A stretch of DNA of 63,976 bases, the filler included, from Basidioascus undulatus (taxonomy: Eukaryota), in NCBI GenBank assembly GCA_000826855.1. It is 3 parts of 3 records of this genome, joined end to end, with 100 filler letters (N's around TTAATTAATTAA, not from the genome) between each part and the next. Parts side by side here need not be neighbours in the genome. Positions count along the whole stretch, not along the records: positions 43,631 to 63,976 come from JTLS01000375.1; 2 more parts are not named here. One strand, given 5' to 3'. Below, in pieces: positions 13,568 to 51,060 of this stretch (the first letter of the stretch is position 1; every line of letters begins with the position of its first letter). The notes under the pieces were generated by a model. That model made no database searches. It saw nothing but the letters and a program-made list of their open reading frames with translations, and was not told where the DNA came from. The translations under genes were made by a program, and so were the position numbers.

Positions 13568-14713
13568 GAAGTCCTGGTCGCAACGGCTACGACGACTTCG
13601 CCCGGCTTGAAACTATTGCGCAGAGGTCGTCAAATGGAGATTGGCCGAGACGAAGCCGTAGCACGATGGCCAGATCGAGACGAAGTCTTCGAGTGGTAAT
13701 TCGCTCTGCTTTTCACGAGGATCTATGCGGTCCACCCTGCCTGGGCGCCGTATTCTCGAAGCCAGCGCCTTCGGACTCTCACTCCGTTCAGAACGTCGCC
13801 ACACCGCTATTTGTGGCCTGCAAACATCATCCAGGCCGTAGAGGCGCTCTAGGCAGAGGGCGCGGCTAGCAAGAGTCGCGAGTGGTATTGAAAATCAGCG
13901 ATACAAAGTGGACGTGTGTGGATACTGGAGGTTGGCGCGAACAGTTCGAAATTGCCAAGCGGCATTCTGGGAGGCAACCGAGCTCCGATGCCAAGGACTT
14001 GGGCCACGATGTGTGGCAAAGCTGGCAGAGCTGCTGGAAGCGGAAACAGGCACTGTGAAAGTTGAAGACGACGTCTCGCCTAATCGTCTTGCTCTTGCAT
14101 ACAGCCACTGTGAAGTGCACGTGGCTGGGCCGACTTCTCAGAGTTAAGGTGTGTCGCTGAGAACAGAGAACGCATTTTCGGCCGACTTGGGCCAGCCACG
14201 AGAGCGCGAGCTGATTGAGGCGAGTCGAGGAAGTCGAGGCGCTCAGTCGTTCGAGCCTCGAAACCTTAACGGCTCTGGCATCTCACGAGCTCGCTCGCCC
14301 TCACCCATTCACTGCCAATGTTGAATAATCGCACATTCGCATTGGATAGGAACTTGTACTTAATGAACAGTACAACGCGACTGCTGGTGTGCGGGCGAGA
14401 CGCTGGCGTTCACGATGAGGCTGCCGTGAAAATCAACCGCCTGCCAACGTTCCACAGTTAGGAAGTGCCCGCCTCATTCAAAATGAATGTCCAATGAATG
14501 ACCGGCAAAAGTATAGAGCCGTGGGTTCTGAACACGGCACATGGAGGATCCACCAGGCGGCGACAGCAGGCGCTTCAGTGCATATGACAATGTAGATAGA
14601 ATGAAGTACGATAGAGCAAGCAAAAAATGCGACAAGCATGAGATTTCAAATCGAAGTGTACGGAAAATGTGGGCGAAGTGAATACAACAGAAAGGTACGT
14701 GTCCATCGTCGCT

Positions 14714-17700: not shown

Positions 17701-20558
17701 CATCTCGGTCAGCGACCACGTCGTCGAGGCGATCATGCCCTACACCCCAAAAAGCCAGGCATCAGCGACCGCATACTTGGAAAGAATATCGAGAGGGAGG
17801 GGGAGGAGGATGGTCCGCACCTTGGCGTTGTCGGACGACAGGTCGCAGATGAGGCGCCCGGTCAAGATGAGCTTGTTCCGCCCGAACTTCGTCCGCGGCC
17901 ACTTGTCGCGGCGGACGCGGCCGATGCGCGACCAGTTGGAGATCTTGTGGTCCGCCATGCGCGTGAGGATCACGTCGAGCGTGTCGCCGAGGAGGTCGTG
18001 CCCGATGATCACGTCCGGGTCGTGCTTCTGGACGATGGCTGGCGGGAACCAAACACGCACGTAAGCGCAGCACGGTCATGAGGAAAGGGCCTTGGGGAAA
18101 AGGAAGGAAGGGGAGAGACGAAGACGAACCGAGGAGGTTGCTGAGCAGGTTCTTCTCGTTCCGCGCAGGTTCGATCTTGCTCCGCTCCTGGCGGGCCTTC
18201 ATCTCAAACCCGGGTGGGAACATCCCGAGGGGTCTGACGACCGTGTGGCTGCTCGACGGCTGCTTCTCGGGCGGTGTTGGGTCCTCAAGGTTGACTGTAA
18301 GATAGCCCAGCGATTGTTCAGATGAGGTCCAGTTTGCGTCTCTCTCCCTAACTCGGCAGGCTCACCGTCCGTCCACGTCCGCGCAGTCGCACAGACGACC
18401 TCGCGGTTGTTGTTCTGGTGGTTGACGATCGATCGCGCCGAGAGGGACATGATCGTGAGCGGCGGGGCGTCCTTCGGCGCCTCCGCGTCTGTCTCGGCGA
18501 AGGGGTTGACGTTCTTGGGTTCGCGAACGATGAACTGGTGTTTGCACCACGTGCTCTGCATGCATGAAGCCAAGTCAGCAGCGTGCCCCCGGAACCAAGG
18601 GAAGAGGATGAGGATGGGATAGGAGGGTGAAAGAACTTACGCCCTTGAGATGCACGTCCGCCTCTTCGATCTTGAGCCAGCAGGGGCCCATGATCTTGCG
18701 CTTGAGGACGAGGAGCTCGAACGGCGAGGTGTTGGTCCCGAAGACGAGCGAGAACGTCTTGCCCGACGCGCCGAGAGGGATCTGGGGTTCTGTTGGTCCT
18801 CCGCGTGTCTCTGAGTCAGTATTGCATTTCTGGAGAGGTGAAACAGCAGGAAGTGGAAGCAAGGAGAAGGCGACGGACGATCAAACGAGTAGACGACCTT
18901 GAGCCACTCGGACTCGCCCTGCGGGACGCCCTTCTCCTCGAACGCGTACTTGCGGTTCACGAACTTTGCGGCCCACGTCTTGATCTTTGCCTTCTGGCGG
19001 AGGCCGTCGAACTCGGCGTGGATCTCTCCGCGCTCGGGCGGCTCGGATGTCTCGTTGCCGGAGTCGTCTGCAATCACACATCGACATCAGCATTGCACTC
19101 CCAAGGCGGGTGGGGGAAAGAAAGAGTAAACGCACCGAGCGCATACGGCCTGGGAAGGACGAACAGGTTCCGCTCGATGCCGTCGACGGTGACGCTCGCG
19201 CTCGTCCACTTCTTGCGCTCGGGGTCGAAGACCTTGCCAAACAAGATGACCTTTCCCGCGTCCTCGAGGTAGTCGAACCAGTAAAGGTGGACGGACCCGT
19301 CGTCCTGATAGATGGGCGAGTCGGTCGGGCTGCCCGCGCGCTCGTACGGCGTCGCAGCCTCCGCGGCCTTGGGGGACAGGGATGGGGACGCCTGGAGGGA
19401 CTCGTGGATCGCGAGCCAGGCGCGCGGGGGCTCGGCCTTTGGCTTGGTCGGGGAGGGTGCGGCGGAGGGAAGGGCGAGGGAGAGGCCTGCGTTCCCGGGG
19501 GGCGGAGGGGACTCCTTCTTGACTGCCGGCGGGGGGGCGGGCTTGACGGCTTTGGAGGAGACGGCGTTGACACGCGGGCGCGGTCCGGTCGTCGCGGCCC
19601 TCAGCGGCGCGCGGACACTGAACCCGTCGGCCTCGTCCTCCGCGTCCTCCTCCTCCTTCTTGACCGGCTCGTCCATCGTCATCGCGTCGCCGAAATCAAA
19701 CTCGAGCCCGCCGTCCGAGATCGGCTCGTCGGCAGCGCGCACCGTCGCCTCGCTTAGGCGCAGCTTCTTGGCCGGGCTCGAGAGCGCGCCGAGGTCGAGT
19801 TTCCTGCGCGCGCGGCTCGCAAAGCTGTCGTCCGAGCTCGGGTGCTCGGGCGGGTCCGAGGACAGCCCCGTACTGTACCCGCTCCCGGACGCGGACGCCG
19901 CAGAGCGGTACGACCTGTACGACGACGTCGGCGGCTTCTTGATGGTGGGGGGCGCGGCGGGCGCGGAGGGGTCGTCGAGGTTGGAGAGGAGCGAGGAGAG
20001 AAAGTCGTCTGCCTTTTCGGACGAGACTTCTTTGCGGTACGGGTTGACGCTCGGCGCAGCGGCAGCGGCGGCGGCGGGCTTGCTGGCGGAGCGCGCAAAG
20101 TACGCTCCGAGCGACTCGGACGCCTTGACCTTTGTCTTTGCGGACTTCTTGGACTTGCGGCGTTTGGGCTGGTCTGTGGGAGGGGGGTGTTCAGACGCGT
20201 CGCCCCTCCGCGAACCCAAGGGGAAGAAAGCGCACCCTGGTCCTCCTCGCTGTTCTCCTGCTCAACCTCGTTGTCCCAGTCGTCCATGCCGTTGTCGACG
20301 TAGCCCGAGCCATCGTCGTCCTCGATAAAGTCGTCGCGGGCAAGGCGGCCCTTGACGATGTTCTTGTACTTGTCCTCGTCGACGACGTCAAAGATGTCCT
20401 CCTCCTCAGTGGCCTGCGGGGTGGGTGTGTGACTAAAGAATGGATGGATTGGATTGAGAAGGGACGGGGACGGGGACGGCGGGCACCTTCCACTGCTTTG
20501 CGCGACCGCCCTGGGCGCGTGCGGCGCGGAGCTGGGCGAGGCGGTCCTTGGAGCTCAT
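14714..20558 (-). CDS. POL1: DNA polymerase alpha catalytic subunit
   Basis: N-terminal [119 protein letters not shown]-terminal Cys clusters; stop TAG at 14714-14716. Confidence 0.97.
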
Positions 20559-20697
20559 GGGGTGCGGAGACTGCTGTGGGGGTATATGCGTGTGATGCGG
20601 TATGAAAAGGGATAGGACAATGTAGGGGGCTGAGAGGGAGGATGGGAGGGTGAGCGGAGGATGAGGATGAGGATGAGGGTGGAAGGGGAAGAGGCAG

Positions 20698-21720: not shown

Positions 21721-21820
21721 NNNNNNNNNNNNNNNNNNNNNNNNNNNNNNNNNNNNNNNNNNNNTTAATTAATTAANNNNNNNNNNNNNNNNNNNNNNNN
21801 NNNNNNNNNNNNNNNNNNNN
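21721..21820. other. Artificial contig linker (N44-TTAATTAATTAA-N44)
   Basis: N runs flanking a six-frame stop spacer; identical to the one at 43531-43630. Confidence 0.97.
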
Positions 21821-25667: not shown

Positions 25668-26765
25668 TCAAGTGAACCCCCTCACGCCGAGCACGCGCCG
25701 GACGTCGGTCGTGAAGCGGAGCGAGTCGAGGAAGGGGAGAAGGTCGAGGAGCGCCTCGTCCGAGGGGTCCGAGATCCAGCCGGGGATGGGGATGCCGTTG
25801 GCTGGGTGAAAAGTAAGGAAGGTGCAAGCCAGTGTCAGGCGAGAGCGAAGGACAGGGGAGAGAAGGAGGGCGGGAGACGAACCAGGATTGATAGAGTACG
25901 AGGCGGGCGAGTTGTCGATGAGCGCGACGCGCGAGAGGTCTGAGTCGACCACGTCGAGGTCTTTCATGTACGAGCCGTTAGGGGATTGGGTGCATGACTG
26001 GGCAGAGAAAAACGCAAGAATGTGAGATCTGGTCGAGTCGGGTGGGGTGGGGGGGGGGGGAGGAAGATCGGGACTCACTTCTCGGAAGAGCCGCCGCGTG
26101 AGGATCCCCCGCCCGGCGTCAAGCCAGTCGATCACGGGGTCCGCGTACTCTTGCATCGACGCGGTGAAGATGACGAGGGTGTACCAGGAGGCGACCTTCA
26201 GAGAGATAAGGCATAAAAGTCAGGAAGGGAGAGGAGGTGAGTGAATGGATGGGGCTGGAGACGCACCTTCTTCAAAAAGAAGTCGACATGCGGGCGCTTA
26301 TAGACATGGTAAAGCACGCTCCTCCCCTCCAACACGACCTCGACCATGTGCGCGCTCCCGCCTCCTACGCCGCCCCCGCCAAACCCGAGGCTGAGCAGCC
26401 CGCTGCCCCCGCCCGTGCCGGACGGCGGGCGGGACGTAGAGTGGATGAGCGTCTCGTCGAGGTCGAGCACGAGCGTCTTGGGGAGGTGCAGCCCCGTTAT
26501 GGGCGCGGGTATTCGCGCCTTGGGGGGCGGCGTGCGCCGCCCGGACGCGGATGAGCCGGGCGCGGCAAGGAGGTGGTTCGAGCCGTAGATCGGGCTGGGG
26601 AGGAGGGAGGAGGACGCGGGAGGTTTGGGACGGCGAGCGACGGAAGGGGAGGAGGATAAGGAGGGGATGATCGGTTTGAGGTGACGCGTGGGAGGGGAAC
26701 GGGGCGCGGGTTGCGGTGGGCCGGGGTATGGAGGAGGGGGCGTGTCGGGCGAGTCGACAGACGTG
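25668..26765 (-). CDS. NEM1: NIF/FCP1-like HAD phosphatase, Nem1/CTDNEP1 type; 5' part missing
   Basis: [111 protein letters not shown]. Confidence 0.88.
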
Positions 26766-29700
26766 CGGAGCAGCGCGTCCAGTCGCTCCGCCTCGCGAGC
26801 CTGCTGCTTCTGCTTCTCGACCCCGCCGCTTTCGCCGACCACCTCCAGTCCGCCGAGCCGGGCACCTCCCTCCCCGACGTCTTCATGTCCGTCCTCTTCG
26901 CGTCGAACGCCTTTAGCCCGCACACCCACGCGCGCGCCCTGGAGGAGTACACGCGCCTCGTTCTCAACGAGCTCCCCCCGCACGAGCGCCCGCACAACCT
27001 CCTCGACCCGCCCCTGTACGACACGCTCGCGGACCATGCGACGGACGTTGTCGCGCGCCATGTGCGCATGGAGGTGGACCCCGCTTCGGGCGCGCAGAAG
27101 AAGGACGAGTACGAGAAGCGCGTCAAGACCGAGTGGCTGCGGTTCGCGAGCCTCATCGGCGAGCTCAACGCGCGCGCGCAGTACCCCCTGCACCTCGCAC
27201 TCACCGACCGCGACGCGCTCGTCGTCCAGGCCGAGGCGATCTCCGCCCCCGTCGCGGAAGACCCAACGCAGCTGCTCCACCGCCTGGCGTCCGCCGACCC
27301 GGCTACGCGCGACGCGTTCCTCGACGCCGCGCCCGTGGCCGTCGAGCCGTACGCGCCCGCGCTGGCGCCGCAAGACCGGCGCGCGGCAGTGGTCAACGTC
27401 CTCGGGCTTGCGCAAGCGCTCGTCGGCGCGCTGCCTCTTGACAGACTGCGCGCGCTCGAGGACGCCGTGCAGGCTGTCGCGCGCGGGGAGATGACGGGCG
27501 CGAAGGAGGACGTCCTGCGTCAAGTGTGGAACGAGAAGGGCGCGCCTGTCGTCCCTCCCGCGGTGAGGGAGCAGGTGGCCGGCGCACTCGCGAACGCGCA
27601 GGACCTCGAGCCCTCCGTCGAGGCGGCGCTAGAAGTCCTCGCATCCTCGAGCGTCCTCCCCGGCGCAGGTGGCGGCGGAGCCGACTCCGCGCCCTCCGAC
27701 CTCGGCAACACGCTCATCGCCTCGCACCTCGCCTCGGCGTTCCACGACCGCTACGCCCTCGCGCGGAACGTGCTCTTCCTCGTGTGCTTTGCGCACACGC
27801 TCGACCGCCTCGCCGCGCCCGCCAGGACGCTCAACACGGCCCTCGCCGTCGCGCACACGGCCAGCCTCCTGCGGTGGCTTGCCCAGCGCGGGGCGGCGGA
27901 CGAGCCGGTGGAGGACGAGGACCAAACAGAGGACGAGAACGACGGCCTTGCTGACCGACTCGGCTCTCTCCGCGTCTCTGGCGGCGGCGGCGACTCCGCC
28001 GCCCGCCTCCCTACGACGTCGCTCCTGCACGCGCTCCTGCGGACGCACCAGTTCGGGGTCTCCCTCCCCGCGCAGGCGCCCTCCCCACTCGCGCTCGCAC
28101 AGGCCGCATCGGCGTTTTTGGGCGCGACGGGCGCGCTCGAGCAGCCCACGCTGGCGGCGCGCCCGGTCGACACCCGCCTCGCGTTCGCGCTGTACCGCTT
28201 TAGGTGGGGCACGCTCGCGAGCGAGTTGTGCCGCGCGTTCTGGAAAGGCGGGGTCGGCGTCGCGTATGTGAGGGGCCGCGCGGGGGTCGATGCGGGCCGG
28301 TGGGACGAGGCGAGGGAGGAGCTTGAGAAGGCTGCTGTGGGCGTTGGTGCGTTTCTGTCTCTCCCCCTTGCTATCACCGATACTGTCCCGGGGAGCTGAC
28401 ATCAATCCCGGTAGTCTCCAACGACCCCTCCCTCCGCGAGATCCTCCCCGCGGACGTGGACTCCCTCTCGGCATACTACGCGCACGTCGCGGCCGTGTTT
28501 GACCACGCGGGCGTCGACGCGCATGTCGCGCACTTTGCGCAGCTCGCGATCGACGAGAAGCCGCGCGGCGAGGAGGCCGGCGACGACGCGCGGGAGCTGT
28601 GGTTCAAGGTCTTCCGCGCGCAGGCGGCGCGAGGCAAGTACGAGGACGCGTACGCCGCGCTGATGGGCATGCCGTTTGAGGACCTGTGCGTGCTGTTTTT
28701 CTACTTTCTCTTGGCCTATCACCTTATCCCTTCGTTCGTCGGCTGAAGCAAAGTTCGTCACCGGTTGCAGGAAGCGCGAATCCCTCCGCCACCTCATCTC
28801 GGTCATGTGCGAGTCGGGCGACGTCGCGCGCCTGACGCAGTTCAGCTTTGTCGGGCTCCAACCCGAGGTTGAGCGCACACTCGCCTTCAAGGCGCGTAAC
28901 TCGGACCCGCTCGCGCGGCCAAACTATTACGAGGTCCTGCACGCTTACCATGTCTTCCGTGGCGACTTCCGGAGCGGTACGCGGTGTTCAGCCTCCCTTC
29001 TTATTAATTTTAGGAGTTCGCTGACGTGCCGGGTGGTCGATACGACAGCGGGCGCGATCATGTACCAGCAGGGACGGCGCCTGGCGGAAGTCCAATGTCG
29101 GCCTGGGGAGTTCGGGGACATTGCGACGCTCCAGGCGCAGAGTTACCTCGCTGCGATCAACGCGCTTGCGCTCGTCGAAAAGCAGCACGCTTGGGTCGCA
29201 CTGCCCGTTGCGCCCGAGGCCGCTCTGCGAGTGCGTTCCACGCTATTCTGACTTGCTCGACCGCGAGAACGCGCAGAGAGCTGACAGTGGGTTGGTGGCT
29301 ATGAACAGACACGCAAGCGCCGCAAGTTGACTGTGCACCTGCCCGAGTCCGAGTTCGCTCCCGAGACGAAGGACCTCGAGGTCGTGAAGCTCGACGACAT
29401 GCGGCGCGAGTACACGCTCGTCCTCGCCCGGCTCCAGCTCTCCCAGCACTTCCCCGAGCTCGCCTCGTCCAGTGCGTCGTTCGCATCCCGTCCCTCCCTC
29501 ATCCGACTAGACTCGGCTAACGGCACGCCGCCGCTCGCTGTGTAGATCTCTCCCTGGCAGCTGAGGACGTCGTCGCGCTCTTTGTTCAGCGCGGGCTGTT
29601 CGGCCTCGCCATCTCGTCAGCGCGCACGCTCGACGTCGACATGACTGGGCTTTTCGCGTCTCTGACGATGCGGTGCGTGCAGCTCTCGAAGTTGGGCGAC

Positions 29701-30404: not shown

Positions 30405-31550
30405 ATTGTTATTATACGTACGCACTGCGAAAGACCTGAAGCTGTGGATTGCAATGCCATCGCGCGCCGGCGGGAAGGGGGATGTCTATTGTGCGGCGCG
30501 TGCGCTGTGGACCGGAATGGCATCAACCGTCTCGAGACGACGACCTCGGTCAATGGGGCGCTCATCATGTCATCTTTCATGGTTGCGTAAAAAAATATAG
30601 ATTACGGGCTGGCAGACGTGCCCAGTGCCATGCCGAAGGCAGACTCGCTGTCGTGTTCACTTCGCGACGCACTCGGAGAGCACCCGTGCAAACTGAACTC
30701 GGCTAGAGGCTTGACGAAAGCTTGCAGCGGATTTCGGTGTGAAAGGGTCGAGAAATTGCGCTCAGATGATTCTCGCTGAGATATAGTTCAAAGGAGCGCT
30801 TCTCAGAAAATCCTTCCGACTCTCGTCTCGGCGTGGCCCCTGCTAGGCTTCAGGCTCAATATCTTTGTTAGACGGAACACTTCAAAAAAAGAAAAAAGGG
30901 GATATTGTGAAATGCTTGGTCGGCTTCCGATGGACCGTCGAAGCGGAGAGACCAACAGAGACTGAGGTCGTGCGCGAACTCCTTTCAAGTCAACAGCATG
31001 CTCGGACTGTCCGAAACATGTCTGAAATGCGTTATGTAATCGCAACACAGGAACTGGAGCGCCGAGAGCCCGGGAGAGAAGGACAGCAACAGGAATGGGA
31101 GATCGTAAATGCGGGAAGCAAGACAACTGAATAAAAGTGTTCTTGTGGGGAGGCGAGGAATAACATTGAGAGGCTATGCGAGTGCTATGAGGGCAACAAC
31201 AGAACAGAAAAGGCGGGAAAATGAGGACAAGAAAGGGACGAGTTGGGATGCTGAAACAACAGGAGAACGACGATTGAGCTGAGACGATGAGGGGAGAAAT
31301 TAGGGATCGGAAGGTGTAGAGCCAGAAAAAGAATACGAAAAGAATTATCGTTGAGGAAACTCGGGTATAGCTTAACGAACTCGAACCGCAGTTAAAAGAC
31401 GAAGGCGACTACGACGGAGCTTCCATCAACCTTCCTACACATCTCCCTCCTCCTTCCTTCCCTTTTTCTTCCTCCTTCTCCTCCATCTCTCCAATAGTCT
31501 CCACCCCCAGTGAGTTATATGCGCAAGTCAACTACACCGCGAGCTCGCGC

Positions 31551-33281
31551 TCACGGCGCGGAAACAGCGCTGCCGCCCCGGACACTGCGCGCACTGGCAG
31601 CCATCGCGGCCTTCCGGCCCCGCTTGCCGCCTTTGCCCCCGCCGCCACCGCCGCGGTAAGAAGCCGCCGTGGTGGAGAACGTTCGCTTGGAGGGAGTCTT
31701 TTGGCGTGGTCTGTTGTGCTGGCGCTCGTACAGCTGCGGGGGGAGATGGAGGGGATGTCAGAGGAGATGGGACGGAGGGAAGTATAGCGGGCATGGAGAG
31801 ATTGTGTGAGATGGAGAAGGGATATAGGAAGGCTGAAGAAGAAGGGGAAAGGGCCACAGGGGAAGGGGAAAATAGGGAGACGTACTCCGCAGGCGTTGCA
31901 GGACTTCGCACCGGGCACGAGGCACGACCGGCGCCAGAAGGGAGAGCTGTCTGTCCCGCAGTTCTGCGACAACAAAATCGATTCAGGACTGGGTTTATGG
32001 GAAGAAATGCGTAGAAACGGACATAGCAGACGCTCGAGTCGAGAGTGAGAGGGATCTTGCGGGCCGAGGGCGCAGAGGTGGCCGAAAGGGAGGGAGAAGG
32101 GGAAGGGGAGCGCGGAGAGGTGGAGATGGAGGAGCGCCGGCGCGTATGCGGGCTGTTTGAGGGGAGATGTTGGGTCAGTGATGGTCGTCTGTAGTGTAGG
32201 ACGGCGTTGAAATGCTTGAGATGAACGGCACTCACCGAGGATTGCTGTCCTCCATCCTGATTTCACTAATGCGCCTCCCCAGCACCCTCGCTTCCCTAGC
32301 GTCCGCCTCAGAAGGAGAATACTCGCTCCCATCCTCGTCGCTCCCATCACCCTCATCCATCTCATCTCCCGCCGCGCCCTCGTCGAGCCCCATCTCCCGC
32401 TCAGGCGACGGCGTCCACGCAGCCCCGCTCCCACAGCCCCAGTCGTCCTCGAGCGCCCCGACGCCCCAGGTCGAGCACGAAATGCTGCTCGGCGAGGGGC
32501 TGGCCGGCTGGGCGTAGGGCTCGGGGAAAGGCAGAGAGCGCAGGAGATGGGTCGAGCGCGGCGTCCAGGTCGCGAGGAGCATCGGGGAAGCGGGCGCTGC
32601 AACGGGGTGAATGTCGGAAGAGGAGGTCGTTGTGCGGAGGGAGGAGAGTGGGCGCGTCGTGTTGGGATATGGGTAGGCAGTTGGAAGGAGCTCCATGGTG
32701 TTTGGGAAAAATGGGCGGGGGGAGATGGTCGGAGAGATGGGCGGAGCGAGGAAGCCAGACCCGGTCGGGGGCGAAATCGCTGTTGGCAATGTGCCTGTGG
32801 AAAGATGGAGGAGCGCGGCTTCTGTTGCCGCTGTCGTGAAAACGGTGCGTCTGAAAGATAAACATTTGTTAGCAGTAGTACTACGAGATAGCGCTCAGCA
32901 AAGAAGGTCACTGACGTCTCACACCGAGCGGAAGCCGAAACTCGAACCTGCAATGCGGGACCACGGTGTGTGCGGGGCTGTGCGGAGGCTGAAGGAAAGA
33001 TGGTGGAAGAGGAAGGAGAGATTCTGTGCAGGCGATCGTCGTGTATTTCAGCCCAGAGCGGAGAGCGTGTTTGCTGCAAGGAGCGAGCAGATCGTGGCAT
33101 GCGGGCTAGATCTCACCCGCTGCAGTCGCTGGTGGAATTGCGCGTATGGAGAGTTGCGCAAGCTGGGCCCTGAGATACTAGGAACCGAATATCCACTGCG
33201 ATAGAGTTTCAGCCCTCGGGCCCAAGCGGGGGGGCGAACGGAAAGCGGAGAGGATGCAGCGGCATTGCTGGCGGCCGTCAT
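31551..33281 (-). CDS. GATA-type zinc-finger transcription factor (copy 1; start uncertain)
   Basis: Spliced finger VCY|NCGTDSSPFWRRSCLVPGAKSCNACG|LYERQHNRPR after a long Ser/Pro-rich and acidic region; stop at 31551-31553. Confidence 0.8.
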
Positions 33282-35336
33282 TGCCTTCGTTGCCACGTCT
33301 CCTTCTCTATCTGGGGGCTTCTGTGTAGAGTCTCAGGAGTAACAGAGATCCAGAAGCATATAGGAAGATATTCATATAAGGAGAATAGCGTCTGCTTATC
33401 GCAATGTCCCCATTGCGAATGGAAGGTCGATTGCAATCCTCGACAGCACAGTCCGCAACGGCCCGCTGCGAGTGAACGATGTGTAAGCGAAACTATCGCG
33501 TCAACAAGTCCACATCGTCACCTCAATCAAAATGATAATAACGAATTATCACTCCCTACATGGTATACAGCATCATTGTCGTTCATGTGACGGCGATTGG
33601 CCGTTGACGCAGCACAAGTGGGTACCAGGGTTTTATGTTCGTTGCGCACTCTGGGCGCGAGAAGATGGTCTTCAGCGGGTGATAGCTCCCTTGAAACCCA
33701 CCGGCATATTACTCAAGTGTCCACCAAGTATCTCTTCTGAATGTCCGTGTCATCGTGGACGAATAGGTTCGGCGATCTTGCAGTGGCCGGTGCCCAAACC
33801 ACCGCCCAATTCCGGGGATGCAATTGCACCTTGGCGCATTCGTGAACCATCCACTGCACAAAGGATAAGACACTTTTAATTTCCGTCGTATTCGGTTAAA
33901 TGCACAAAGTTTGCACTCCTCCGAGGATGATCTGCACAGATTTCCCGGGCTGTTCCGAGCTGTGCCGGACCGAAAGTTTGTTGTGGCAGACAAATTAAAC
34001 GAGGCTTAAAGTATGAGTATACGTTTCAGAGAAGCGGGATGGCTCACACTTCCTCAGGTGGAAGAGAAAGGCAAGTGGTTGAAGCACAGTCTCGTATCCG
34101 CTCGCCCACGCACTCGGTGCTCGCACTGCGATGCGCAAGTTGTGCGAAACGATTCGAAAGATTTGGTAGTTATCCACATGCTTTAAACCGTTCGTGGAAC
34201 CTTGGCGATGCGATTACGACCTCACCTTCTGGCTTTCAGGCATGTTTGCGCGACTACAGGCTGTGAGCAGCCTCGGATCGTCGACAACACCGTGTGACTG
34301 GCGCAATGGTGAGGAAGTGACAGGTATAAACAACTAGAGTAGAACATGATTTGGATTACTGAGCATTCAATCAGGAAGGTTCGGTACACCCTCCGCTTAC
34401 AGTCGGAAGCGCACGTTGCGGCTGTGGTCGCCAGCAGTCAGCCTTCTCCATCTTGGGCCTCCCAAGACTGGACCGGTACATACAGGAAGGATGGTTCTGA
34501 GATACTATTTAGATAAATGCGCAGGAGTCTCGACAGTCCGAGGAGACAGCCGGTGTTCAGTGCTACTGAGCGCGGAGTACTGCTGTCCCTGCACACAACA
34601 GGCCCTGAGATGTTACGCTGGTGACCTGCTTGTATACCTCACAATGCAGAGTCAGGAATAATTATGAATTTTTCAATCATGTAATTATCTTGCAAACACG
34701 AGAGACGCCCTATCTAAAATTGCACTGAGAGCGGTGAGTCCAGGGACCACGTCAGCCAAGTGGATCGGACGAAGGTAGCAGTCAGTTGCTAGCACACCCG
34801 ACTTGAGCAGCCCTTCTTGTTTGCTTTGTGCTCAGCAGAGGCGCCCTAGACGCCCAGGTTCACCACTGAGAGGATGGACACGCAGCGTACGCTGCGAAAC
34901 TCGACCCGACTGCCACAGTGGCGACCTGTGCTCGTCCGCCATAGGGAGTCTACTACCTGCAACCGCCAAAAGACAGATTTTTTTTAACTCTCAGTTCTTC
35001 TTATCCATGACTGTGGCAACGTCTCAGAGACTGAAACTTGCCACTCTGCTTCTCACCTCGATGCTCTTGTTCTGTTTCACGTTCACGGAAGCAATGGCAT
35101 ACGTGACCAAGCTGACACGCCTGCTACCCCAGCCTGAATGGACCTCGTCTGGAGTCTGGAGCCCGCCTTGACCTCCCACCACCGTCTTGATTCCCCTCTT
35201 CATTGCTCCCGCCAAGCACACATACACACACGAGACGCTCGCTATACAGCTTGCATAGACCCCATTTGCTCTTTCACCTAGACCGACACACCCTCTCTCC
35301 ACCCCATCACCAGCAGTTCCGGCGTCTTCTCCGGCC

Positions 35337-36365
35337 ATGTTTACCGGTCTTGTGCGTCTTCTTCGATGCACGCGACCGATTGGCCGCACGCTGATTCGAG
35401 GGGATCAGATTGAGCTCGTAGGAAGGGTTTCTGGTATCGAGGAGAGGGATACTTCCTCGGAGGGTGGCGGCGGGTGGACCATCACCATTAGCGACGCGAG
35501 CGAGATTCTGGGGGACTGCCACAACGGGGACTCGATTGCGGTCAACGGTGAGTGCGCATGTACGGTCGCGCATTCTTCGGCGCTAGCTGACAGGCGTAGA
35601 TGTGGGGGCGGTGCAGGCACTTGTTTGACTGTGACGAGCTTCACCGAGAACAGCTTCAAGGTCGGCCTCGCACCTGAGACGCTCAACCGGACAAACCTTG
35701 GCTCCTTGACGGTGGGAAGCAAGGTCAACCTGGAGCGGGCGATGCTGCCTAATACGCGACTTGGAGGTCATCTGGTTCAGGTTCGTCTCCAGCCCCTGTG
35801 TGCCGGAAGCGCTGCGGTGGATGGGGCTTACATGTGGCGGACAGGGTCACGTTGACACGACAGCGACGATCGTCTCCTCCACGCCCGACGGAAACTCTCT
35901 CCGCCTCACCTTCTCTTTCCCTTCCGGTACCTCCGAGATTCCCTCCATCGCGCCGTACCTCATCCCGAAGGGGTACATCACGCTGGACGGCGCGTCGCTC
36001 ACGCTCACGGCCGTCTCGCCCCCGGAGCGCACGTTCAGCGTCATGCTCGTCTCGTACACGCAGGGCAAGATCACGCTGCCCTCCAAAAACGTCGGGGACA
36101 AGGTGAACGTCGAGGTGGACATGGTCGGCAAGTACGTCGAGCGCAGCGTCGAGGCGCTCTTTGCGGACGAGGCCGCCGACGACGGCGAGGAGGGCGAGGG
36201 CAAGGTCCGCGCGCTCGAGGGCTTTGTCGAGCGCGCCGTGGAGAGGGTGCTGGAGCGCAAGGGCTTGACCGGGAAGGCCGTACGTCTCTTTGGCCTGTTT
36301 ACGTGTCCTCGAGCTGGTCTTGCTGACCGCTTGCGTTGATGCAGGCTTACGTCCTTGGCCGTTGA
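35337..36365 (+). CDS. RIB5: Riboflavin synthase
   Basis: MFTGL|IELVG, GDSIAVNG|TCLTVT, GLAPETLNRTNLG, VNLERAM, RLGGHLVQ|GHVD, PKGYITLDGASLT, VNVEVDMVGKY. Confidence 0.96.
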
Positions 36366-43530: not shown

Positions 43531-43630
43531 NNNNNNNNNNNNNNNNNNNNNNNNNNNNNNNNNNNNNNNNNNNNTTAATTAATTAANNNNNNNNNNNNNN
43601 NNNNNNNNNNNNNNNNNNNNNNNNNNNNNN
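43531..43630. other. Artificial contig linker
   Basis: N44-TTAATTAATTAA-N44. Confidence 0.97.
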
Positions 43631-44305: not shown

Positions 44306-45842
44306 CGCCCCACTTCCCGCAGTTAAGGGCTCCCATTAACAGCGCCGCCGGCAAGCCTGAATCACAATGCTTGAGCTGCCATTGTCACACGGACTTGGTA
44401 TACTGGTGGACACTATTACAGATTACAGATGTATTAACCGACTTCGCCGAGTACAAAGCTCGGCTTAGGTCTGCGCGGTGGCAAGGACCACTCTGAGCCC
44501 GCCTGCCTGCGGCCCTCCTCCAGCCAAAAACACCTCCCCATACGCCCCTACCCCTGCCCCCACAGAGAGCCTTCGGCCCGTGAACGAGTGCGTGAGGTCA
44601 GGCGGTCGGGGGACGTACCTCCGCTTGTCGTTCCTCTGCCTGTCGTACTTTAAAAGCTGCTTTTTGGTGGGTGCCCCAGATCTATGCAGCAGAGAGCCCT
44701 TGTAGTGTGCGGAGCGGGAAGCCCGGAATATATAGGATCTTCGGGACTAACCGGAGGTAGTATACGCTCCGGCCCAACGGCCACACCGGGCCATCTTGGA
44801 ACAGCGAAACTGCCATGGCCTGCATCGTGTGTACCTTGTCCGGGGGATGTCTGCTTGCTCGAGAAGCGAGCGGGTCATACGTTGGATATCATCACTTGCT
44901 TTTTCCCTAATCGCGCTGTAGTGCCCACATTCCACAAAGACATGATGCTCGTCTTCGACCTCGCCGCAGTGTGGGGCTCGTCTTCAGGCCGCAGGCGGTC
45001 TGCTTCCCACGGTCTAGTTGCCAGTGATCCTGTGCGCGCTTGTAACTGGACCTGGACCTGAGCCGTGTATGCACTGACTGTTCTAGTGTACAGGTATTCT
45101 GGCGGGGCAGTACTGTCGTATAGGCTTGCGTTGACGCGGGACAGGGTTTTTGGCGGGAGGCTGTCTTGCTGCCGAATGGTCATGCAGTGCTGTGTCTAGT
45201 CTTTTATGTTCAACTCAACAAAACCGTCGCGGTCGTGGTAGGGAGTGTATGCGTCCATGTGGAAAGTTGCCCAGGGGACCATCAGAGTGGTGGGCGTGCG
45301 GGCCTGCTTTGCTGCCTGGTCCGCTGCGGCTGCTGCGAGTGCCGGCTCCCCTGTGCGCCTTCTCATGTTGCAGACTTACATGAGGATACCGCTCAGTTAG
45401 ACTTTTCAGCCAACGGTAGAAACTCCGTCTGTAGAGTGTGCCCCAAGTGTACGACAGGAATCCGTGGTCGCTAGCCTCCGCTAAGATGCGGCATGTGTTG
45501 AGTGATCCGTGTGCAGGATGGTGGTGGCGTACCGCTGTGGATTCCTGGCGAGCGGCCGCGTTGAGGCCTCTTCAAGGAGCTGCGAGGGGTACACGTGAAC
45601 GAGTGAGGTGGCAAAGTGGCGCAAGGCTCACTAGAAGGTGCTTTTCAACTCTAGCGAGGTGACTGGCACTGCGCTGTCATAAAGCACGGGATAGTAGATT
45701 AGAGGGGCTCTGACTGACTCAACAGAGTGCGTCAGCCTGTTTGGAGGTGTCCATATTTTGCTTTGCAGTGGTTGAGTAAATGTGAACCTGTGGTTCAAAA
45801 ATAATTTACTGATGTCCGGTCTAATAGCCGGATGGCAGCGAA

Positions 45843-45922
45843 ATGGTGAGGTCGGTTGTTCAATCCAGCCAGGGGGCATCTCAATTGCCCCTTTAGCTCA
45901 GTGGTAGAGCGCGCCACTCGTA
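45843..45922 (+). tRNA. Circularly permuted tRNA-Thr(CGT): 3' half 45843-45878 precedes 5' half 45887-45922
   Basis: Reassembled cloverleaf: acceptor GCCCCTT/AGGGGGC+A73, D arm GCTC-AGTGGTA-GAGC, anticodon stem CGCCA/TGGTG with loop CT-CGT-A|A, variable loop AGGTC, T arm GGTTG-TTCAATC-CAGCC. The break is at the canonical 37/38 position. Confidence 0.9.
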
Positions 45923-45927
45923 CTGTC

Positions 45928-45932
45928 TTTTT
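45928..45932 (+). terminator. Pol III oligo(dT) terminator of the permuted tRNA
   Basis: TTTTT 5 nt after position 37 of the 5' half. Confidence 0.75.
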
Positions 45933-47188
45933 ACTTGTTTTGCAGCCTTCTTTGCTGCTCCTGTAGGTCCAGGCCAGGGTTCTCATTTCCATAATCGAGC
46001 TTCGGGCATGAAGCGTTGATCTATTCAAACTGGCGGGTTGACCGTGATCTTGCGTTGGATTCTTCTGCAAGATAGAAGCTGCGATGGAGTTAAACAAGTT
46101 AATACGTCGGAATGAACAGTCTCCACAGATGCGACAGGTAATCCGAACACATGGGAGTTTTCATCTCATTCCTGCTCTCAAACGACAGAGTGTGTCTGTC
46201 TTGTGTCCACCGAGCTCCTGGGATTCCCTCACGATCATCCTTTTCGACTTCCCGGAAATCATAAATATTGGGTTGCATGCACATGTAGTCTGTATTCAGT
46301 GTGCCCCTATAGGGGGGCAATGTCGTTGCCAGGCTCAACTGCCCTTGAGGCCAGCACCGAAGCTGTTTCCACTAGCGGTTGTAAAGATGGCCGCCTTCCT
46401 TTCCTCCTACATGCAATCCGGACCTTTGACCTGGAACATTCCACGTATTTCCCGATTGATGAACAACCTTCGTGATTGCCTCGTTTCCACAGCTTCAGAC
46501 CGGACTTGCCCGTCCCGATGCGGGCTGGGGCCGCTTCAGTCCGAGTCTCTCTTCCTCCTCGCACAACCTGCCAACCAGCCAGTGAACTTTTGTTGTCGAC
46601 AGTCTTGGTATCAGCTCCAGCGCTCTCCTTTTCGTGCACAAGCGTTCGACATGTGCAGTCTGCTCAAGGTTGCCCTCCCTAAGATATGCGCAGGTAGCTT
46701 AAGCCTGCGATGGATCCTCCTGTCCGAGGTCCAAGTTGGAGTGTTACACCTGCTGTTTGAACGTGCTCAAAGATCCAATGAGTAAACGGCATGCATAGAC
46801 CCTACATTGGATTCCCCTCACGACACAGTGTGTCTGCCGAGCTTCCGTGGTTCACGCCATCACGACCGCCTACTGCACATGCCGCGTGATCTCAATGCAT
46901 TGTACAGACAGAGGTGGTGGTTGCGCAGGACGGTGACCTCAGAAAGAGATGTGAGCAGAAAATACGTGAAAAAGGAAACGGAGAGAAAACATAGGCCCTG
47001 GCCGATATCAAGAGCTTAGGCGCGGGTGGGTGACAGGGAACGGCCGTCGAGATCAGAACAGAGAGCAGGCAAGACCCAGCATGCGCGCGCGCTTGTGGTT
47101 GTTGAGAAAGAGAAAAAGAAAAGGTATTCATAGGCGTGAGAGGAGAAGAAGGAGGAGAGTGTGTTTGAGATTGTGAGATTTTAGACTC

Positions 47189-48689: not shown

Positions 48690-49109
48690 TATGGGCGCTG
48701 CTGTTGGTCGGAGCTTTGTCCCTCCGAAGGACTGAGAGTGCAGCTGGCGGCGAGTGTGCTGGGCGAAGGGGTCGCGACAGGCAGGCGAGGGCAAGCTCGA
48801 AGAAAGAAGCAAGGCGAGTCGCACAGGTCAGCAGCTTTTTTCATGAATCTTGCTCGCCCCGGCTTTCCGCCTCCGCCGTCCGCGAACCTTCGCTGCCAGT
48901 CTGCGCCTGCCTGCCTGCCTTTCTTCCCTTGCCTTCATGCTAGAATTCAATTCAAGGGAATTTATTGCAGCAGAATAATGCAGAATGAAATCATCCAAGA
49001 AGCAAAAAGAAGTGGCTTCCTGACAAGACGGTGGACACTCATGAACAGCCGCCAGCCTGCCCTCGAGCGGGCCTCGGATTCAAGTCCGAGCAAAATTAAC
49101 CAAAAGAAA

Positions 49110-49183
49110 TGGCCACTGCAGGGGTCGAACCTGCGACTTTGGAGTTATTAGCTCCACACTCTAACCAACTGAGTTAAGCGGCC
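49110..49183 (-). tRNA. tRNA-Ile(AAT), intronless
   Basis: GGCCGCTTAACTCAGTTGGTTAGAGTGTGGAGCT-AAT-AACTCCAAAGTCGCAGGTTCGACCCCTGCAGTGGCCA folds to a standard cloverleaf, followed by TTTCTTTT. Confidence 0.95.
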
Positions 49184-50299
49184 AACATAAGAACAATTGA
49201 ATTGAAAATCCATCTTGTGCAGCCATCAAGGGCTTCACGCAGTCCAGTCGGACCCACCAGTTCAGGTGCAGTGACAAGATGAAATGCTCTATTGAGAGTC
49301 TCAATACTAAGATAATCACCTAAAGAACGAATAAAGGTGTTCAGAAAGGAGGTCTGGAGCTGACAGTCAACCAACTCACTGCCTCGCTTTCGTCGGTAAG
49401 CACTGCAGCCTATAGCTTGAAGGTAGACAGAATTTACAACCATACTATTTAACTTAGAGGTGGACCGGTGCTTGGCCGTAGACCGGCCCCGCTTTACTAC
49501 ACATGTGTTGAAACTGCGGTGTGTATGGCTGTGGCAGATTGCGCCAGACTGGGCTGGCAGGAGGAAGCAAAAGTTATTGATCGGCACGGTTTTAATTGAC
49601 TGGAATCCCTTTTGAACATACAGTTCAGAGCTAAATGTGGCAAACTCGGATAAGCACTCTGTGGCATGAACGACCGTTGAGGACTTGGAACGCTGGCAGT
49701 CTTTGGATCGCTTTGTTCAGCGGCGGGGAGCTAAAATACAAATGTCCCATTTTTGGAGAAGAAAAGTCTTCGTAAAGTGTTTGGGAAGTGCGCGAGCTCC
49801 GAGTGAACGAGTGAGGTGGAACGCACAACTCGCATTAGCAGGCGAGTGCATGCATTTAAACCGTGAATGGGTGTGGCTGCTGTCACTCTCTTACAAGCTG
49901 CTCTCCTCTGACCAGGCGTAGTCTTTGGAAATCTAATATTCTCTTCTGGGTAAACATCTCCCGAAGCAGTCAATCAGATTGTTCGTGAAGTCGAGGTTGC
50001 TCCTGCTCGCTGGAGGCGGAAACACAGTCTGCCTGGCTAACGACGCATCTCGTTGATAATGCTGATTCTGAGGAGAGCGGTTCCAAGTTTGATTACCAGT
50101 TTTTGAAGGTAGTTTAAGGTAAATGTTGTTTTTTTGGGAGCGAAACGAAAAGACGGGGTCAAGCTGCTGAAGTACGGGACCGGCCGGCCCTAAAGCAGCC
50201 ATCCGCGGTAGGGCCCTGGAGACCGTCCCGGTCTTCTCCCTTCCCCCCGCACCCTCCATCACTCCTCCTCCCTAGTTTATTCCACCCGCGTCGCTCACC

Positions 50300-51060
50300 A
50301 TGTCAGCGCCCGCTGTTATCCCGACCGCAAGATCGGTTCTGTCCTCCGTTCGCTCTCCGGTGATCCGCCGCTTCTTCGAGCGCGAGTCGCAGCGCTGGAC
50401 CCCGAAGCCGGCCGGGCGCTTCACTCGCAACCCCGAGGGTTCCGTAATCCACCTGCTCGACCCCTCCGTCTCCCCGACCTCCGCCGGCCCCTTCCCGAAC
50501 CCCTTCGTCACGCACCGACACCCGCACACGCAGCGCATCATCCGGCCGTTCTACTCGTTGCGGGAGCAGGCGGACCTCGTGAAGGCTGCGCAGGAGGAGG
50601 GCGTGCTCGGCCTACTCCCGCCGGGGAAGAAGAGCGGGTCGCTGGAGGAACTGGAGGGCGAGGCGCGCGCGAAGGGCGTCTTGAGGGAGATGATCTGGGT
50701 TGGGGGGGAGGAGGGCCCCGGAGCGAAGAGGCCGTTGAACCAGAGGAGGGGCAAGGAGTTCAAAGGCAAGAAGAGCGAGCGGGAGCGCCCGGCGAAGCTC
50801 AAGCTCAGGAAGGAGCGCATGGACGGGATGGAGAAGCGCATTGAGGAATGGAAGAAGGTGAGTTGGATTGTATCTCGTCGGTGTCTGCGTTGCCAGGGCG
50901 GTTTGAAGGACAGGCAATGCTGTGTCTTTCTTGAGTCGTGGCGTGCAGACACAGGCGATTGCAGCACGTCTTTGGGGAACAAAGGCTGATCATTTCGTGC
51001 TGCATCCCACAGGCGAAGGCGGCCGAGAAGGCAAAGATCAAGGCGACGTTGCCATTCTGA
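50300..51060 (+). CDS. MRPL25: Mitochondrial ribosomal protein mL59 (MRPL25)
   Basis: PNPF..PFYSLREQADLVKAA..LLPPGKK..FKGKKSERE..MDGMEKRIEEWKK|AKAAEKAKIKATLPF*. Confidence 0.85.

What the first reader, a model, noticed from the sequence alone, without database searches (positions are those of the whole stretch)
45834..45927. Leader and trailer mimic a split tRNA intron (TSEN substrate)
Trailer CTGTC (45923-45927) can pair with leader GGCAG (45834-45838). The leader ends ...GAA|A38, so G45840 is the antepenultimate 'intron' base able to form the anticodon-intron pair with C32 that the eukaryotic splicing endonuclease requires. Inference: the gene arose from an intron-containing tRNA broken inside its intron and is processed by Sen2/Sen34 and Trl1.
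Basis: partly seen in the sequence, partly recalled or inferred. Interest (0 to 1): 0.75.

Follow-up and report, generated by a model that had tools for sequence, protein, structure and literature searches.

The report
Back-to-front threonine tRNA gene in fungus
A basidiomycete fungus carries a threonine tRNA gene written back half first, whose flanking sequences rebuild an intron-like structure, so the tRNA-splicing enzymes probably have to cut and rejoin the RNA; this gene layout was so far reported only in algae and one archaeon.

Summary
GGCAG (45834-45838) can pair with CTGTC (45923-45927), with one G-U pair. G45840 lies at -3 from the 3' cut and C32 (45917) at -6 from the 5' cut, which is the published anticodon-intron pair geometry.

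They flank a circularly permuted tRNA-Thr(CGU) gene with its junction at 37/38. Its parts are:
- 3' half, 45843-45878
- 8-nt spacer
- 5' half, 45887-45922
- T5 terminator, 45928-45932

ARAGORN and Rfam miss the gene as written. After the halves are swapped, ARAGORN calls a clean tRNA-Thr.

The host is a basidiomycete, and the window also encodes Sen2. DNA contigs of two public runs show several further permuted copies. Their leaders end in the same GAA, most trailers start with CTGT(C), and each trailer is followed by a T-run.

The leader-trailer helix alone is not beyond chance: 223 of 2000 random flanks do as well. Folding pairs G45840 with C34, not C32. No RNA data and no relatives' genomes were available, so processing by TSEN and ligase is inferred from the algal model.

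Verdict: a new member of a known kind. Six literature searches found no report of one in a fungus.

The parts
45797..45808 (+). AT-rich, TATA-like run (AAAAATAATTTA), 26-37 nt upstream of G45834. It is a possible upstream Pol III promoter element.
   Evidence: Read directly from the sequence. Its function is inferred by analogy with the upstream TATA-like elements of algal permuted tRNA genes (PMC3978253, sections 4 and 5) and was not tested.
45814..45833 (+). 7-bp hairpin in the far leader (GUCCGGU...GCCGGAU). It may or may not be transcribed.
   Evidence: It is in the minimum-energy fold of 45806-45932. One other genomic copy shares the sequence from exactly 45814 onward (X1 record 2).
45834..45842 (+). 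Leader GGCAGCGAA, the intron-3'-end equivalent. GGCAG pairs with the trailer. G45840 is the purine at -3 from the 3' cut (45842/45843).
   Evidence: The last 10 leader bases are shared by two other copies and GAA by a fourth.
45843..45878 (+). 3' half of tRNA-Thr(CGU), A38 to discriminator A73. It holds the anticodon-stem 3' strand, variable loop, T arm with the B box, and acceptor 3' strand. No CCA is encoded.
   Evidence: ARAGORN on the swapped halves, the cloverleaf in all folds, and a single occurrence in the window.
45879..45886 (+). 8-nt intervening sequence TCTCAATT that closes the acceptor stem as a loop. [quoted passage not shown]
   Evidence: It has no T-run. Its length lies within the 1-74 nt range of known permuted genes (PMC3978253, Table 1).
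45887..45922 (+). 5' half of tRNA-Thr(CGU), G1 to A37. It holds the acceptor 5' strand, the D arm with a perfect A box (TAGCTCAGTGG, 45894-45904), the anticodon-stem 5' strand, C32 (45917) and the anticodon CGT (45919-45921).
45923..45927 (+). Trailer CTGTC, the intron-5'-end equivalent. It pairs with GGCAG 45834-45838. The 5' cut lies at 45922/45923.
   Evidence: CTGT or CTGTC opens 4 of the 5 distinct trailers seen in the genome's contigs.
45928..45941 (+). Pol III terminator: T5 at 45928-45932 and a second T4 at 45938-45941.
   Evidence: There is no T run of 4 or more between 45781 and 45927. Every distinct trailer of the other copies is also followed by a T4-T5 run within 2-10 nt.

Best explanation
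This is a working, circularly permuted (type II, junction 37/38) gene for tRNA-Thr(CGU) in a basidiomycete fungus, and one member of a small dispersed family.

Proposed pathway:
1. RNA polymerase III transcribes leader, 3' half, 8-nt spacer, 5' half and trailer as one RNA and stops in the T5 run.
2. The two halves fold into a normal cloverleaf whose acceptor stem is closed by the spacer.
3. At the open anticodon side, the leader and trailer pair with each other (GGCAG/CUGUC) and with the anticodon loop. This rebuilds what an intron-containing pre-tRNA looks like with its intron broken open.
4. The splicing endonuclease, positioned by the mature tRNA body, cuts at 45842/45843 and 45922/45923.
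5. The tRNA ligase joins A37 to A38, giving an 80-nt circle.
6. RNase P and tRNase Z remove the spacer, and CCA is added.

Shown here: the gene anatomy, the fold, the terminator, the multicopy family and the presence of Sen2. Inferred: transcription, both cuts, ligation, the circle and the order of steps.
For: - ARAGORN and Rfam see nothing here as written. After swapping the halves in a script, ARAGORN returns tRNA-Thr(cgt) with a 7-bp acceptor stem, U8, G18G19, U33, TTC loop and A73.
- The cloverleaf plus a flank helix is the minimum-energy fold for three transcript lengths. Only 3 of 200 and 2 of 200 shuffles fold as well for the two longer-leader-independent forms.
- It is the only permuted tRNA candidate in the window (1 of 1421 filtered candidates).
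- There is no T run of 4 or more inside the unit and a T5 lies 5 nt after A37.
- The A-I geometry fits: a pyrimidine at -6 from the 5' site and a purine at -3 from the 3' site.
- DNA contigs of two runs from two studies join unique flanks to the 3' half (45600-45863, 0 differences) and to the 5' half (45903-46150, 0 differences).
- The same contigs show further copies. Two 60-nt contigs and one 88-nt contig span the 3' half, spacer and 5' half with 2-4 substitutions. There are at least 3 other left flanks and at least 4 other right flanks. Each distinct trailer carries its own T4-T5 run. The last 3-10 leader bases and first 4-5 trailer bases are shared while the sequence beyond differs.
- The window encodes Sen2 (Pfam tRNA_int_endo; best named hits Wallemia Sen2 at 45-47% identity).
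- The pathway is the one shown experimentally for algal permuted tRNAs (PMC3978253, section 6).
Against: - No RNA evidence of any kind was available, so expression, both cuts and the junction are untested.
- The leader-trailer stabilisation is matched by 223 of 2000 random and 500 of 2000 shuffled flanks.
- With a start at 45826 the whole-molecule fold is unremarkable (z -1.07; 30 of 200 shuffles fold as well), and the trailer pairs with GGAUGG instead.
- G45840 is predicted to pair with C34, not C32. The bulges around the central helix are then 2 nt, not the 3 nt of a textbook bulge-helix-bulge.
- One other copy has only TC between A37 and its T-run, so the helix cannot be universal.
- One 88-nt variant carries changes that would leave a C-A mismatch at 5-68, so some copies may be decaying.
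- The A and B boxes are in reversed order. How Pol III is recruited upstream is unknown, and the TATA-like run is only a resemblance.
Confidence: 0.72

Rival explanations
1. Same gene and same cuts, but a different order and no circle. As in budding and fission yeast, end processing occurs in the nucleus and splicing later in the cytoplasm. RNase P and tRNase Z would first remove the spacer and CCA would be added. This leaves a two-piece pre-tRNA held together by the acceptor stem, the anticodon stem and the leader-trailer helix. TSEN and the ligase then trim and join it, much like an archaeal split tRNA.
For: TSEN sits on the mitochondrial outer surface in both Saccharomyces and Schizosaccharomyces (PMC10485636, passages read). 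Soma 2014 notes that the order of steps should follow enzyme location. In this route a leader-trailer helix of 5 bp plus 3 bp would have a clear role in holding the pieces together.
Against: Circular intermediates were found in every alga tested (PMC3978253, section 6). TSEN localisation in basidiomycetes is unknown. Nothing in the sequence distinguishes the two orders.
Confidence: 0.2
2. A non-functional relic or repeat. The permuted unit would be debris of tandem tRNA duplications, or a tRNA-derived short repeat that has spread through the genome and is not made into a decoding tRNA.
For: The unit is multicopy and homology between copies stops close to the unit's ends. One variant has a likely acceptor-stem mismatch. 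A weak D-arm-like relic lies upstream at 45756-45776 (13 of 1000 random segments score as high). Expression is not shown.
Against: Every invariant tRNA position and all four stems are intact. Independent, dissimilar trailers each keep a T-run within 2-10 nt of A37, which relics have no reason to do. There is no internal terminator. No contig showed the two halves in canonical order (no joint), though this is weak because contigs cannot show absence.
Confidence: 0.1
3. A tRNA mimic of the Y RNA-like (YrlA) type: a permuted tRNA-like module that binds a protein and does not decode.
For: At a permissive threshold, the only Rfam match over the locus is YrlA at 45825-45932, 21.8 bits, E 0.024.
Against: The score is far below the family's gathering score of 69 bits. 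The match rests on the shared T arm, D arm and acceptor-like stem. Unlike YrlA, this RNA keeps both strands of a full anticodon stem, U33, a Thr anticodon and A37. The host is a fungus, whereas YrlA is bacterial and phage.
Confidence: 0.02
4. Only the 5' half is transcribed. The internal A box (45894-45904) would place the start in the spacer, giving a tRNA-half RNA and no full tRNA.
For: In ordinary tRNA genes the start lies a fixed short distance upstream of the A box (recalled textbook knowledge). Here that position falls in or near the spacer.
Against: The A box alone, without a downstream B box, is a poor promoter (recalled). The 3' half, the leader and the anticodon-stem complementarity between the two halves would then be unconstrained, yet they are intact in several copies.
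Confidence: 0.04

Closest known systems
Type II (junction 37/38) circularly permuted tRNA genes of unicellular algae: Cyanidioschyzon merolae (which also has a permuted Thr(CGT)), Ostreococcus, Micromonas, the Bigelowiella natans nucleomorph (Soma 2007; Maruyama 2010; reviewed in PMC3978253) and Auxenochlorella (PMC12633428)
   Same: The 3' half lies upstream of the 5' half on one strand. The intervening sequence is short (8 nt here, 1-74 nt known). The junction is at 37/38. Leader and trailer can pair next to the anticodon stem. There is a T-stretch after the 5' half and no terminator inside. No CCA is encoded. An AT-rich run lies upstream.
   Different: The host is a basidiomycete fungus, not an alga. 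The gene belongs to a dispersed multicopy family, whereas the listed algal cases are mostly single genes. The predicted junction motif is relaxed, with 2-nt bulges around a 3-4 bp helix. The circular intermediate is not shown here.
Canonical eukaryotic intron-containing pre-tRNA as TSEN substrate, e.g. yeast pre-tRNA-Phe with the C32:G54 A-I pair (PMC8479045; PMC10485636)
   Same: The mature body is intact. The cuts are at 37/38. There is a pyrimidine at -6 from the 5' site and a purine at -3 from the 3' site, AA before the 3' cut in a bulge-like position, and anticodon bases able to pair with the intron-equivalent.
   Different: The 'intron' is open, since its two ends are the ends of the transcript, and the acceptor end is closed. 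G(-3) is predicted to pair with C34 rather than C32.
Permuted tRNA genes of Thermofilum pendens (Chan, Cozen and Lowe 2011, PMC3218864; seen as a search listing and through Soma's review)
   Same: The gene order is circularly permuted and processing depends on the splicing endonuclease.
   Different: The archaeal genes have their junction at 59/60, encode CCA, use the archaeal BHB-only enzyme and also carry introns.
YrlA / Y RNA-like tRNA mimics (Rfam RF02553)
   Same: The order of tRNA-like arms is permuted, with a stem formed by the two ends of the RNA.
   Different: The locus is below the family threshold (21.8 against 69 bits). It keeps a complete anticodon arm and anticodon.

Membership tests
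Circularly permuted tRNA gene (Soma type II) | The 3' half lies upstream of the 5' half on the same strand, separated by a short intervening sequence that joins the acceptor-stem ends. | tested here: met
   3' half 45843-45878, 8-nt spacer, 5' half 45887-45922.
Circularly permuted tRNA gene (Soma type II) | The swapped halves give a canonical cloverleaf with the conserved eukaryotic tRNA elements. | tested here: met
   ARAGORN returns tRNA-Thr(cgt). U8, G18G19, U33, T54T55C56 and A73 are present.
Circularly permuted tRNA gene (Soma type II) | The junction lies at 37/38, with flanks able to form a BHB or hBH-type motif. | tested here: inconclusive
   The junction is at 37/38. A 5-bp outer helix plus a 3-4 bp central helix is predicted, but the bulges are 2 nt and the stabilisation is not beyond chance (223 of 2000).
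Circularly permuted tRNA gene (Soma type II) | There is no terminator in the intervening region, a T-stretch follows the 5' half, and CCA is not encoded. | tested here: met
   There is no T run of 4 or more in 45781-45927, a T5 lies at 45928-45932, and A73 is followed by TCT.
Circularly permuted tRNA gene (Soma type II) | A TATA-like element lies within about 50 bp upstream. | tested here: inconclusive
   An AT-rich run lies at 45797-45808. This is a resemblance only, and the upstream stretches of the other copies shown carry no obvious equivalent.
Circularly permuted tRNA gene (Soma type II) | A circular RNA intermediate and a mature CCA-tailed tRNA with the halves in normal order. | not testable with these tools
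   No RNA run holds the locus and only DNA contigs could be laid.
Eukaryotic TSEN substrate | [quoted passage not shown] | tested here: inconclusive
   C45917 and G45840 are at the right positions, and G(-3) is kept in 4 of 4 leaders seen. The pair has probability 0.000 in the thermodynamic ensemble, where G45840 pairs with C34.
Eukaryotic TSEN substrate | A folded mature domain (acceptor, D and T arms) for the ruler mechanism. | tested here: met
   All four stems are present in every fold. The acceptor end is closed by an 8-nt loop.
Eukaryotic TSEN substrate | Cleavage by Sen2/Sen34 and joining by the tRNA ligase. | not testable with these tools
   Only the presence of a Sen2 gene in the window was shown.
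YrlA (Rfam RF02553) | A score at or above the family's gathering threshold. | tested here: not met
   21.8 bits against 69.

The most novel reading that the evidence does not exclude
In this basidiomycete lineage every gene for tRNA-Thr(CGU) is circularly permuted, forming a dispersed family of at least four loci. Decoding of ACG would then depend on the yeast-type TSEN-ligase pathway rejoining (circularising) the RNA, which would be the first such case outside algae and archaea. The family would have spread by reverse transcription of the permuted or circular precursor, which would explain why similarity between copies ends near the ends of the transcript.
Probability: 0.15. Interest if true: 0.8.

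Novelty: new member of a known kind. Interest (0 to 1): 0.6.

Why it matters
Permuted tRNA genes have been reported only from a handful of unicellular algae and one crenarchaeon. The main review states that most eukaryotes have none (PMC3978253), and a 2026 review still lists only algae among eukaryotes (PMC13578239, passages read).

A fungal case would show four things:
- The layout arises independently wherever 37/38 introns are common. In the basidiomycete Cryptococcus, 132 of 143 tRNA genes have introns (PMC4090602, passage read).
- The opisthokont TSEN and ligase can handle a substrate with an open intron and a closed acceptor end.
- Standard tRNA finders can silently miss an isoacceptor in fungal genomes, since ARAGORN and Rfam found nothing here.
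- A natural family of variants exists in which the A-I pair and the leader-trailer helix can be tested.

Tried and rejected
- **RNA evidence.** No RNA holder was listed for the locus, so expression and the junction could not be examined.
- **Whole genome.** None is held. I could not ask whether a canonical tRNA-Thr(CGU) exists or pair each leader with its own trailer.
  - By script, 90 of 120 continue as ordinary tRNAs (tandem arrays).
  - Only 2 of 120 (L018, L021) looked permuted. ARAGORN showed both to be tandem ordinary tRNA-Thr(AGT) genes followed by another tRNA.
  - So 0 of 120 are true relatives.
- **Earlier findings of this scan.** There was nothing for this genome, this sequence or its look-alikes. 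There was no fungal permuted tRNA by words.
- **Organism.** The Nup120 ORF search gave nothing. Placement rests on two other searches.
- **Vestiges of a tandem duplication.** Of four alignments, three are not significant:
  - 3' half against downstream: 95 of 1000 random segments score as high.
  - 3' half against upstream: 93 of 1000.
  - 5' half against downstream: 584 of 1000.
  - 5' half against upstream (45756-45776): 13 of 1000, the only hint.
- **A-box-like TAGCCGGATGG in the leader (45825-45835).** It has 2 mismatches. Such matches occur 2.15 times per kb per strand in the window, so I rejected it as evidence.
- **A first brute-force permutation scan** produced 300-MB files and was replaced by a filtered scan.
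- **YrlA reading.** Rejected on score.
- **Leader-trailer covariation across copies.** By hand, one divergent leader and one divergent trailer would form 6 pairs in the same register, and another pair would extend the helix to 7 bp. The contigs do not say which leader belongs to which trailer, and C-to-T changes keep G-U pairs automatically, so I do not count this as evidence.

Full report
**What is there.** Between 45834 and 45932 the + strand reads, in order:
- a 9-nt leader ending GAA;
- 36 nt that are the 3' half of a tRNA (A38 to discriminator A73, 45843-45878);
- the 8 nt TCTCAATT;
- 36 nt that are the 5' half of the same tRNA (G1 to A37, 45887-45922);
- CTGTC;
- TTTTT.

ARAGORN and Rfam at gathering thresholds find only an ordinary tRNA-Ile(AAT) at 49109-49184 on the minus strand and nothing here. 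When a script swapped the two halves by coordinates, ARAGORN called a clean tRNA-Thr(cgt). It has a 7-bp acceptor stem, a 4-bp D stem, 5-bp anticodon and T stems, and the usual invariant bases. This is a circularly permuted tRNA gene with the break between positions 37 and 38.

**Is it more than chance?** For the gene, yes.
- A scan of both strands for acceptor-type hairpins left 1421 candidates after a T-arm-or-D-arm filter. Exactly one had both arms, and it was this locus.
- Among the 22 candidates with a T arm, ARAGORN hits after permutation came only from this locus and from the ordinary tRNA-Ile gene, which is an artefact of including nearly the whole real tRNA.
- Each half occurs once in the window at up to 3 mismatches, and 0 of 100 shuffles gave a match.

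- GGCAG/CTGTC does form 5 pairs. It is in the minimum-energy structure of transcripts starting at 45834 or 45806, with pair probabilities of 0.71-0.98.
- With the tRNA body held constant, 223 of 2000 random leader/trailer pairs from the window and 500 of 2000 shuffles of the real flanks stabilise the RNA at least as much (-7.6 kcal/mol).
- With a start at 45826 the trailer pairs instead with GGAUGG at 45830-45835, and the whole-molecule z-score is only -1.07.

[quoted passage not shown] It is needed for the 3' cut (PMC8479045, passages read).

The energy model prefers a 3-bp helix: U33-A45841, C34-G45840, G35-C45839 (probabilities 0.90-0.97). It gives the C32-G45840 pair probability 0.000.

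In the preferred fold both cut sites lie in 2-nt bulges flanking a 3-4 bp helix. This is a relaxed rather than textbook bulge-helix-bulge. Which conformer the enzyme uses cannot be decided here.

**Transcription signals.**
- There is no run of four or more T between 45781 and 45927.
- T5 follows the trailer at 45928-45932, and T4 follows at 45938-45941.
- The A box is perfect (45894-45904), but it lies downstream of the B box. An upstream element is therefore needed.
- An AT-rich run at 45797-45808 lies 26-37 nt before G45834. This is a resemblance to the TATA-like elements described for algal permuted genes (PMC3978253, sections 4 and 5), not a test.

**Host.**
- A DNA polymerase alpha exon finds only basidiomycete proteins among its best 120 hits. 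The top hits are Atractiella and Wallemia.
- An ORF at 828-1565 carries the tRNA-intron endonuclease catalytic domain. Its best named hits are Sen2 of Wallemia ichthyophaga and W. mellicola at 47% and 45% identity, followed by many Agaricomycotina Sen2 proteins.
- The organism is therefore a basidiomycete without a close sequenced relative in that database, and it has the catalytic subunit that makes the 5' cut.

**Other copies in the same genome.** Two DNA runs from two studies hold the locus. One may be the source of the assembly, so they are not fully independent.

Laid on 45600-46150, contigs with unique flanks run into the 3' half (45600-45863, 0 differences) and out of the 5' half (45903-46150, 0 differences). 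This supports the arrangement at this locus.

Further contigs come from other loci:
- Two 60-nt contigs (45850-45909, 2 and 3 differences) and one 88-nt contig (45839-45922, 4 substitutions and 4 inserted letters, mostly in the spacer) cross from the 3' half through the spacer into the 5' half. The permuted order is therefore repeated elsewhere.
- Other left flanks join at 45814, 45833 and 45840. All four leaders seen therefore keep GAA at -3..-1, and three keep the last 10 bases.
- Other right flanks leave at 45922, 45926, 45927 and 45939. Four of the five distinct trailers begin with CTGT or CTGTC, and one has only TC.
- Each distinct trailer then has its own T4-T5 run within 2-10 nt, in otherwise unrelated sequence.
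- None of the upstream stretches shown contains a 5' half. No contig showed the halves in canonical order, which is weak evidence because contigs cannot show absence.

I read this as a dispersed family of permuted Thr genes under selection to terminate just after the 5' half. Its intron-equivalent ends are conserved, as introns are among copies of ordinary tRNA gene families. The contigs do not link leaders to trailers, so covariation could not be counted.

**Mechanism.** The best-supported reading is the algal pathway (PMC3978253, section 6):
1. One Pol III transcript is made.
2. It folds into a cloverleaf with a closed acceptor end.
3. The splicing endonuclease removes the leader and trailer at 37/38.
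4. The tRNA ligase joins A37 to A38, giving an 80-nt circle.
5. RNase P and tRNase Z open the acceptor loop.
6. CCA is added.

Because the eukaryotic enzyme measures from the mature body (the ruler mechanism; PMC10485636 and PMC3978253, section 8), the leader-trailer helix may help but need not be essential. The TC-only copy points the same way.

A real alternative for a fungus follows from TSEN location. TSEN sits on mitochondria in both budding and fission yeast. Nuclear end processing might therefore come first, giving a two-piece intermediate held together partly by the leader-trailer helix, and no circle.

**Origin.** A break at 37/38 with complementary flanks is what the duplication-and-loss model predicts for an intron-containing ancestor (PMC3978253, section 10). 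The only trace I found is a weak D-arm-like stretch at 45756-45776 (13 of 1000 random segments score as high). The other three vestige tests were not significant. Introns of Thr(CGT) genes in relatives could not be fetched.

**Relatives and literature.**
- The one metagenome scan gave 120 loci and no true permuted relative.
- 'permuted tRNA' is held by 74 papers (30 listed) and by 40 papers from 2017 on (36 listed).
- With 'fung' it is held by 22 papers (18 listed). With 'basidiomyc' it is held by 2 (1 listed, a ligase review).
- 'permuted' + 'tRNA' + 'Wallemi' is held by 0.
- No listed title or abstract start reports a fungal case.
- Soma's 2014 review lists 34 genes in six algae and one archaeon. 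A 2025 preprint adds Auxenochlorella. A 2026 review still names only algae among eukaryotes.
- Subscription-only papers are outside this library, so 'not in print' holds only for these searches.

**Verdict.** The larger point is that a fungus carries a family of permuted tRNA genes. That makes this a new member of a known kind, in a kingdom where none was reported.

Noticed in passing
window 828-1565 (+): An exon of a Sen2 homologue, the catalytic subunit of the tRNA-splicing endonuclease. It has the Pfam tRNA_int_endo domain, cut off by an intron, and its best named hits are Wallemia Sen2 at 45-47% identity. It is the enzyme that would make the 5' cut, and it lies 45 kb from the permuted gene by coincidence.
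   Followed up: partly
window 49109-49184 (-): An ordinary, intron-less tRNA-Ile(AAT) gene followed by TTTCTTTT. It is the only tRNA that the standard tools find in the window. Its upstream region is AT-rich (TTTTCAATTCAATTG) without a clear TATA box.
   Followed up: partly
window 45756-45776 (+): A stretch resembling the D arm and A box of the 5' half, about 70-85 nt upstream of the 3' half. Of 1000 random segments, 13 score as high. It may be a vestige of the lost outer 5' half of a tandem duplication.
   Followed up: partly
window 45825-45932 (+): A weak match to the bacterial Y RNA-like family YrlA (21.8 bits, E 0.024, threshold 69). It arises because YrlA is itself a permuted tRNA-like fold.
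   Followed up: yes
other loci of the same genome (contigs): One leader variant differs from the window's leader mainly by C-to-T and G-to-A or G-to-T changes (positions -4, -5, -7, -12, -13). This could reflect repeat-induced point mutation acting on this repeated family.
   Followed up: no
window 21721-21820 and 43531-43630: Two pairs of 44-N runs (176 N in all), so the assembly is a draft with small gaps. None is near the locus.
   Followed up: no
window 14600-20600 (-), 26660-29250 (+), 25670-27630 (-), 35260-36340 (+), 50276-50986 (+), 31535-33112 (-): Ordinary housekeeping genes split by short introns: DNA polymerase alpha catalytic subunit, Nup120/160 nucleoporin, an NIF-type phosphatase, riboflavin synthase (lumazine-binding repeats), mitochondrial ribosomal protein mL59 and a GATA zinc-finger protein (Pfam).
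   Followed up: no
L018 1250-1645; L021 1563-1635: Metagenome contigs with closely spaced tRNA genes: Gln, Thr(AGT) and a 97-nt tRNA with an insert. The Thr acceptor stem matches that of the next gene, so the pair imitates a permuted gene in a pattern search. This is a caution for such scans.
   Followed up: yes
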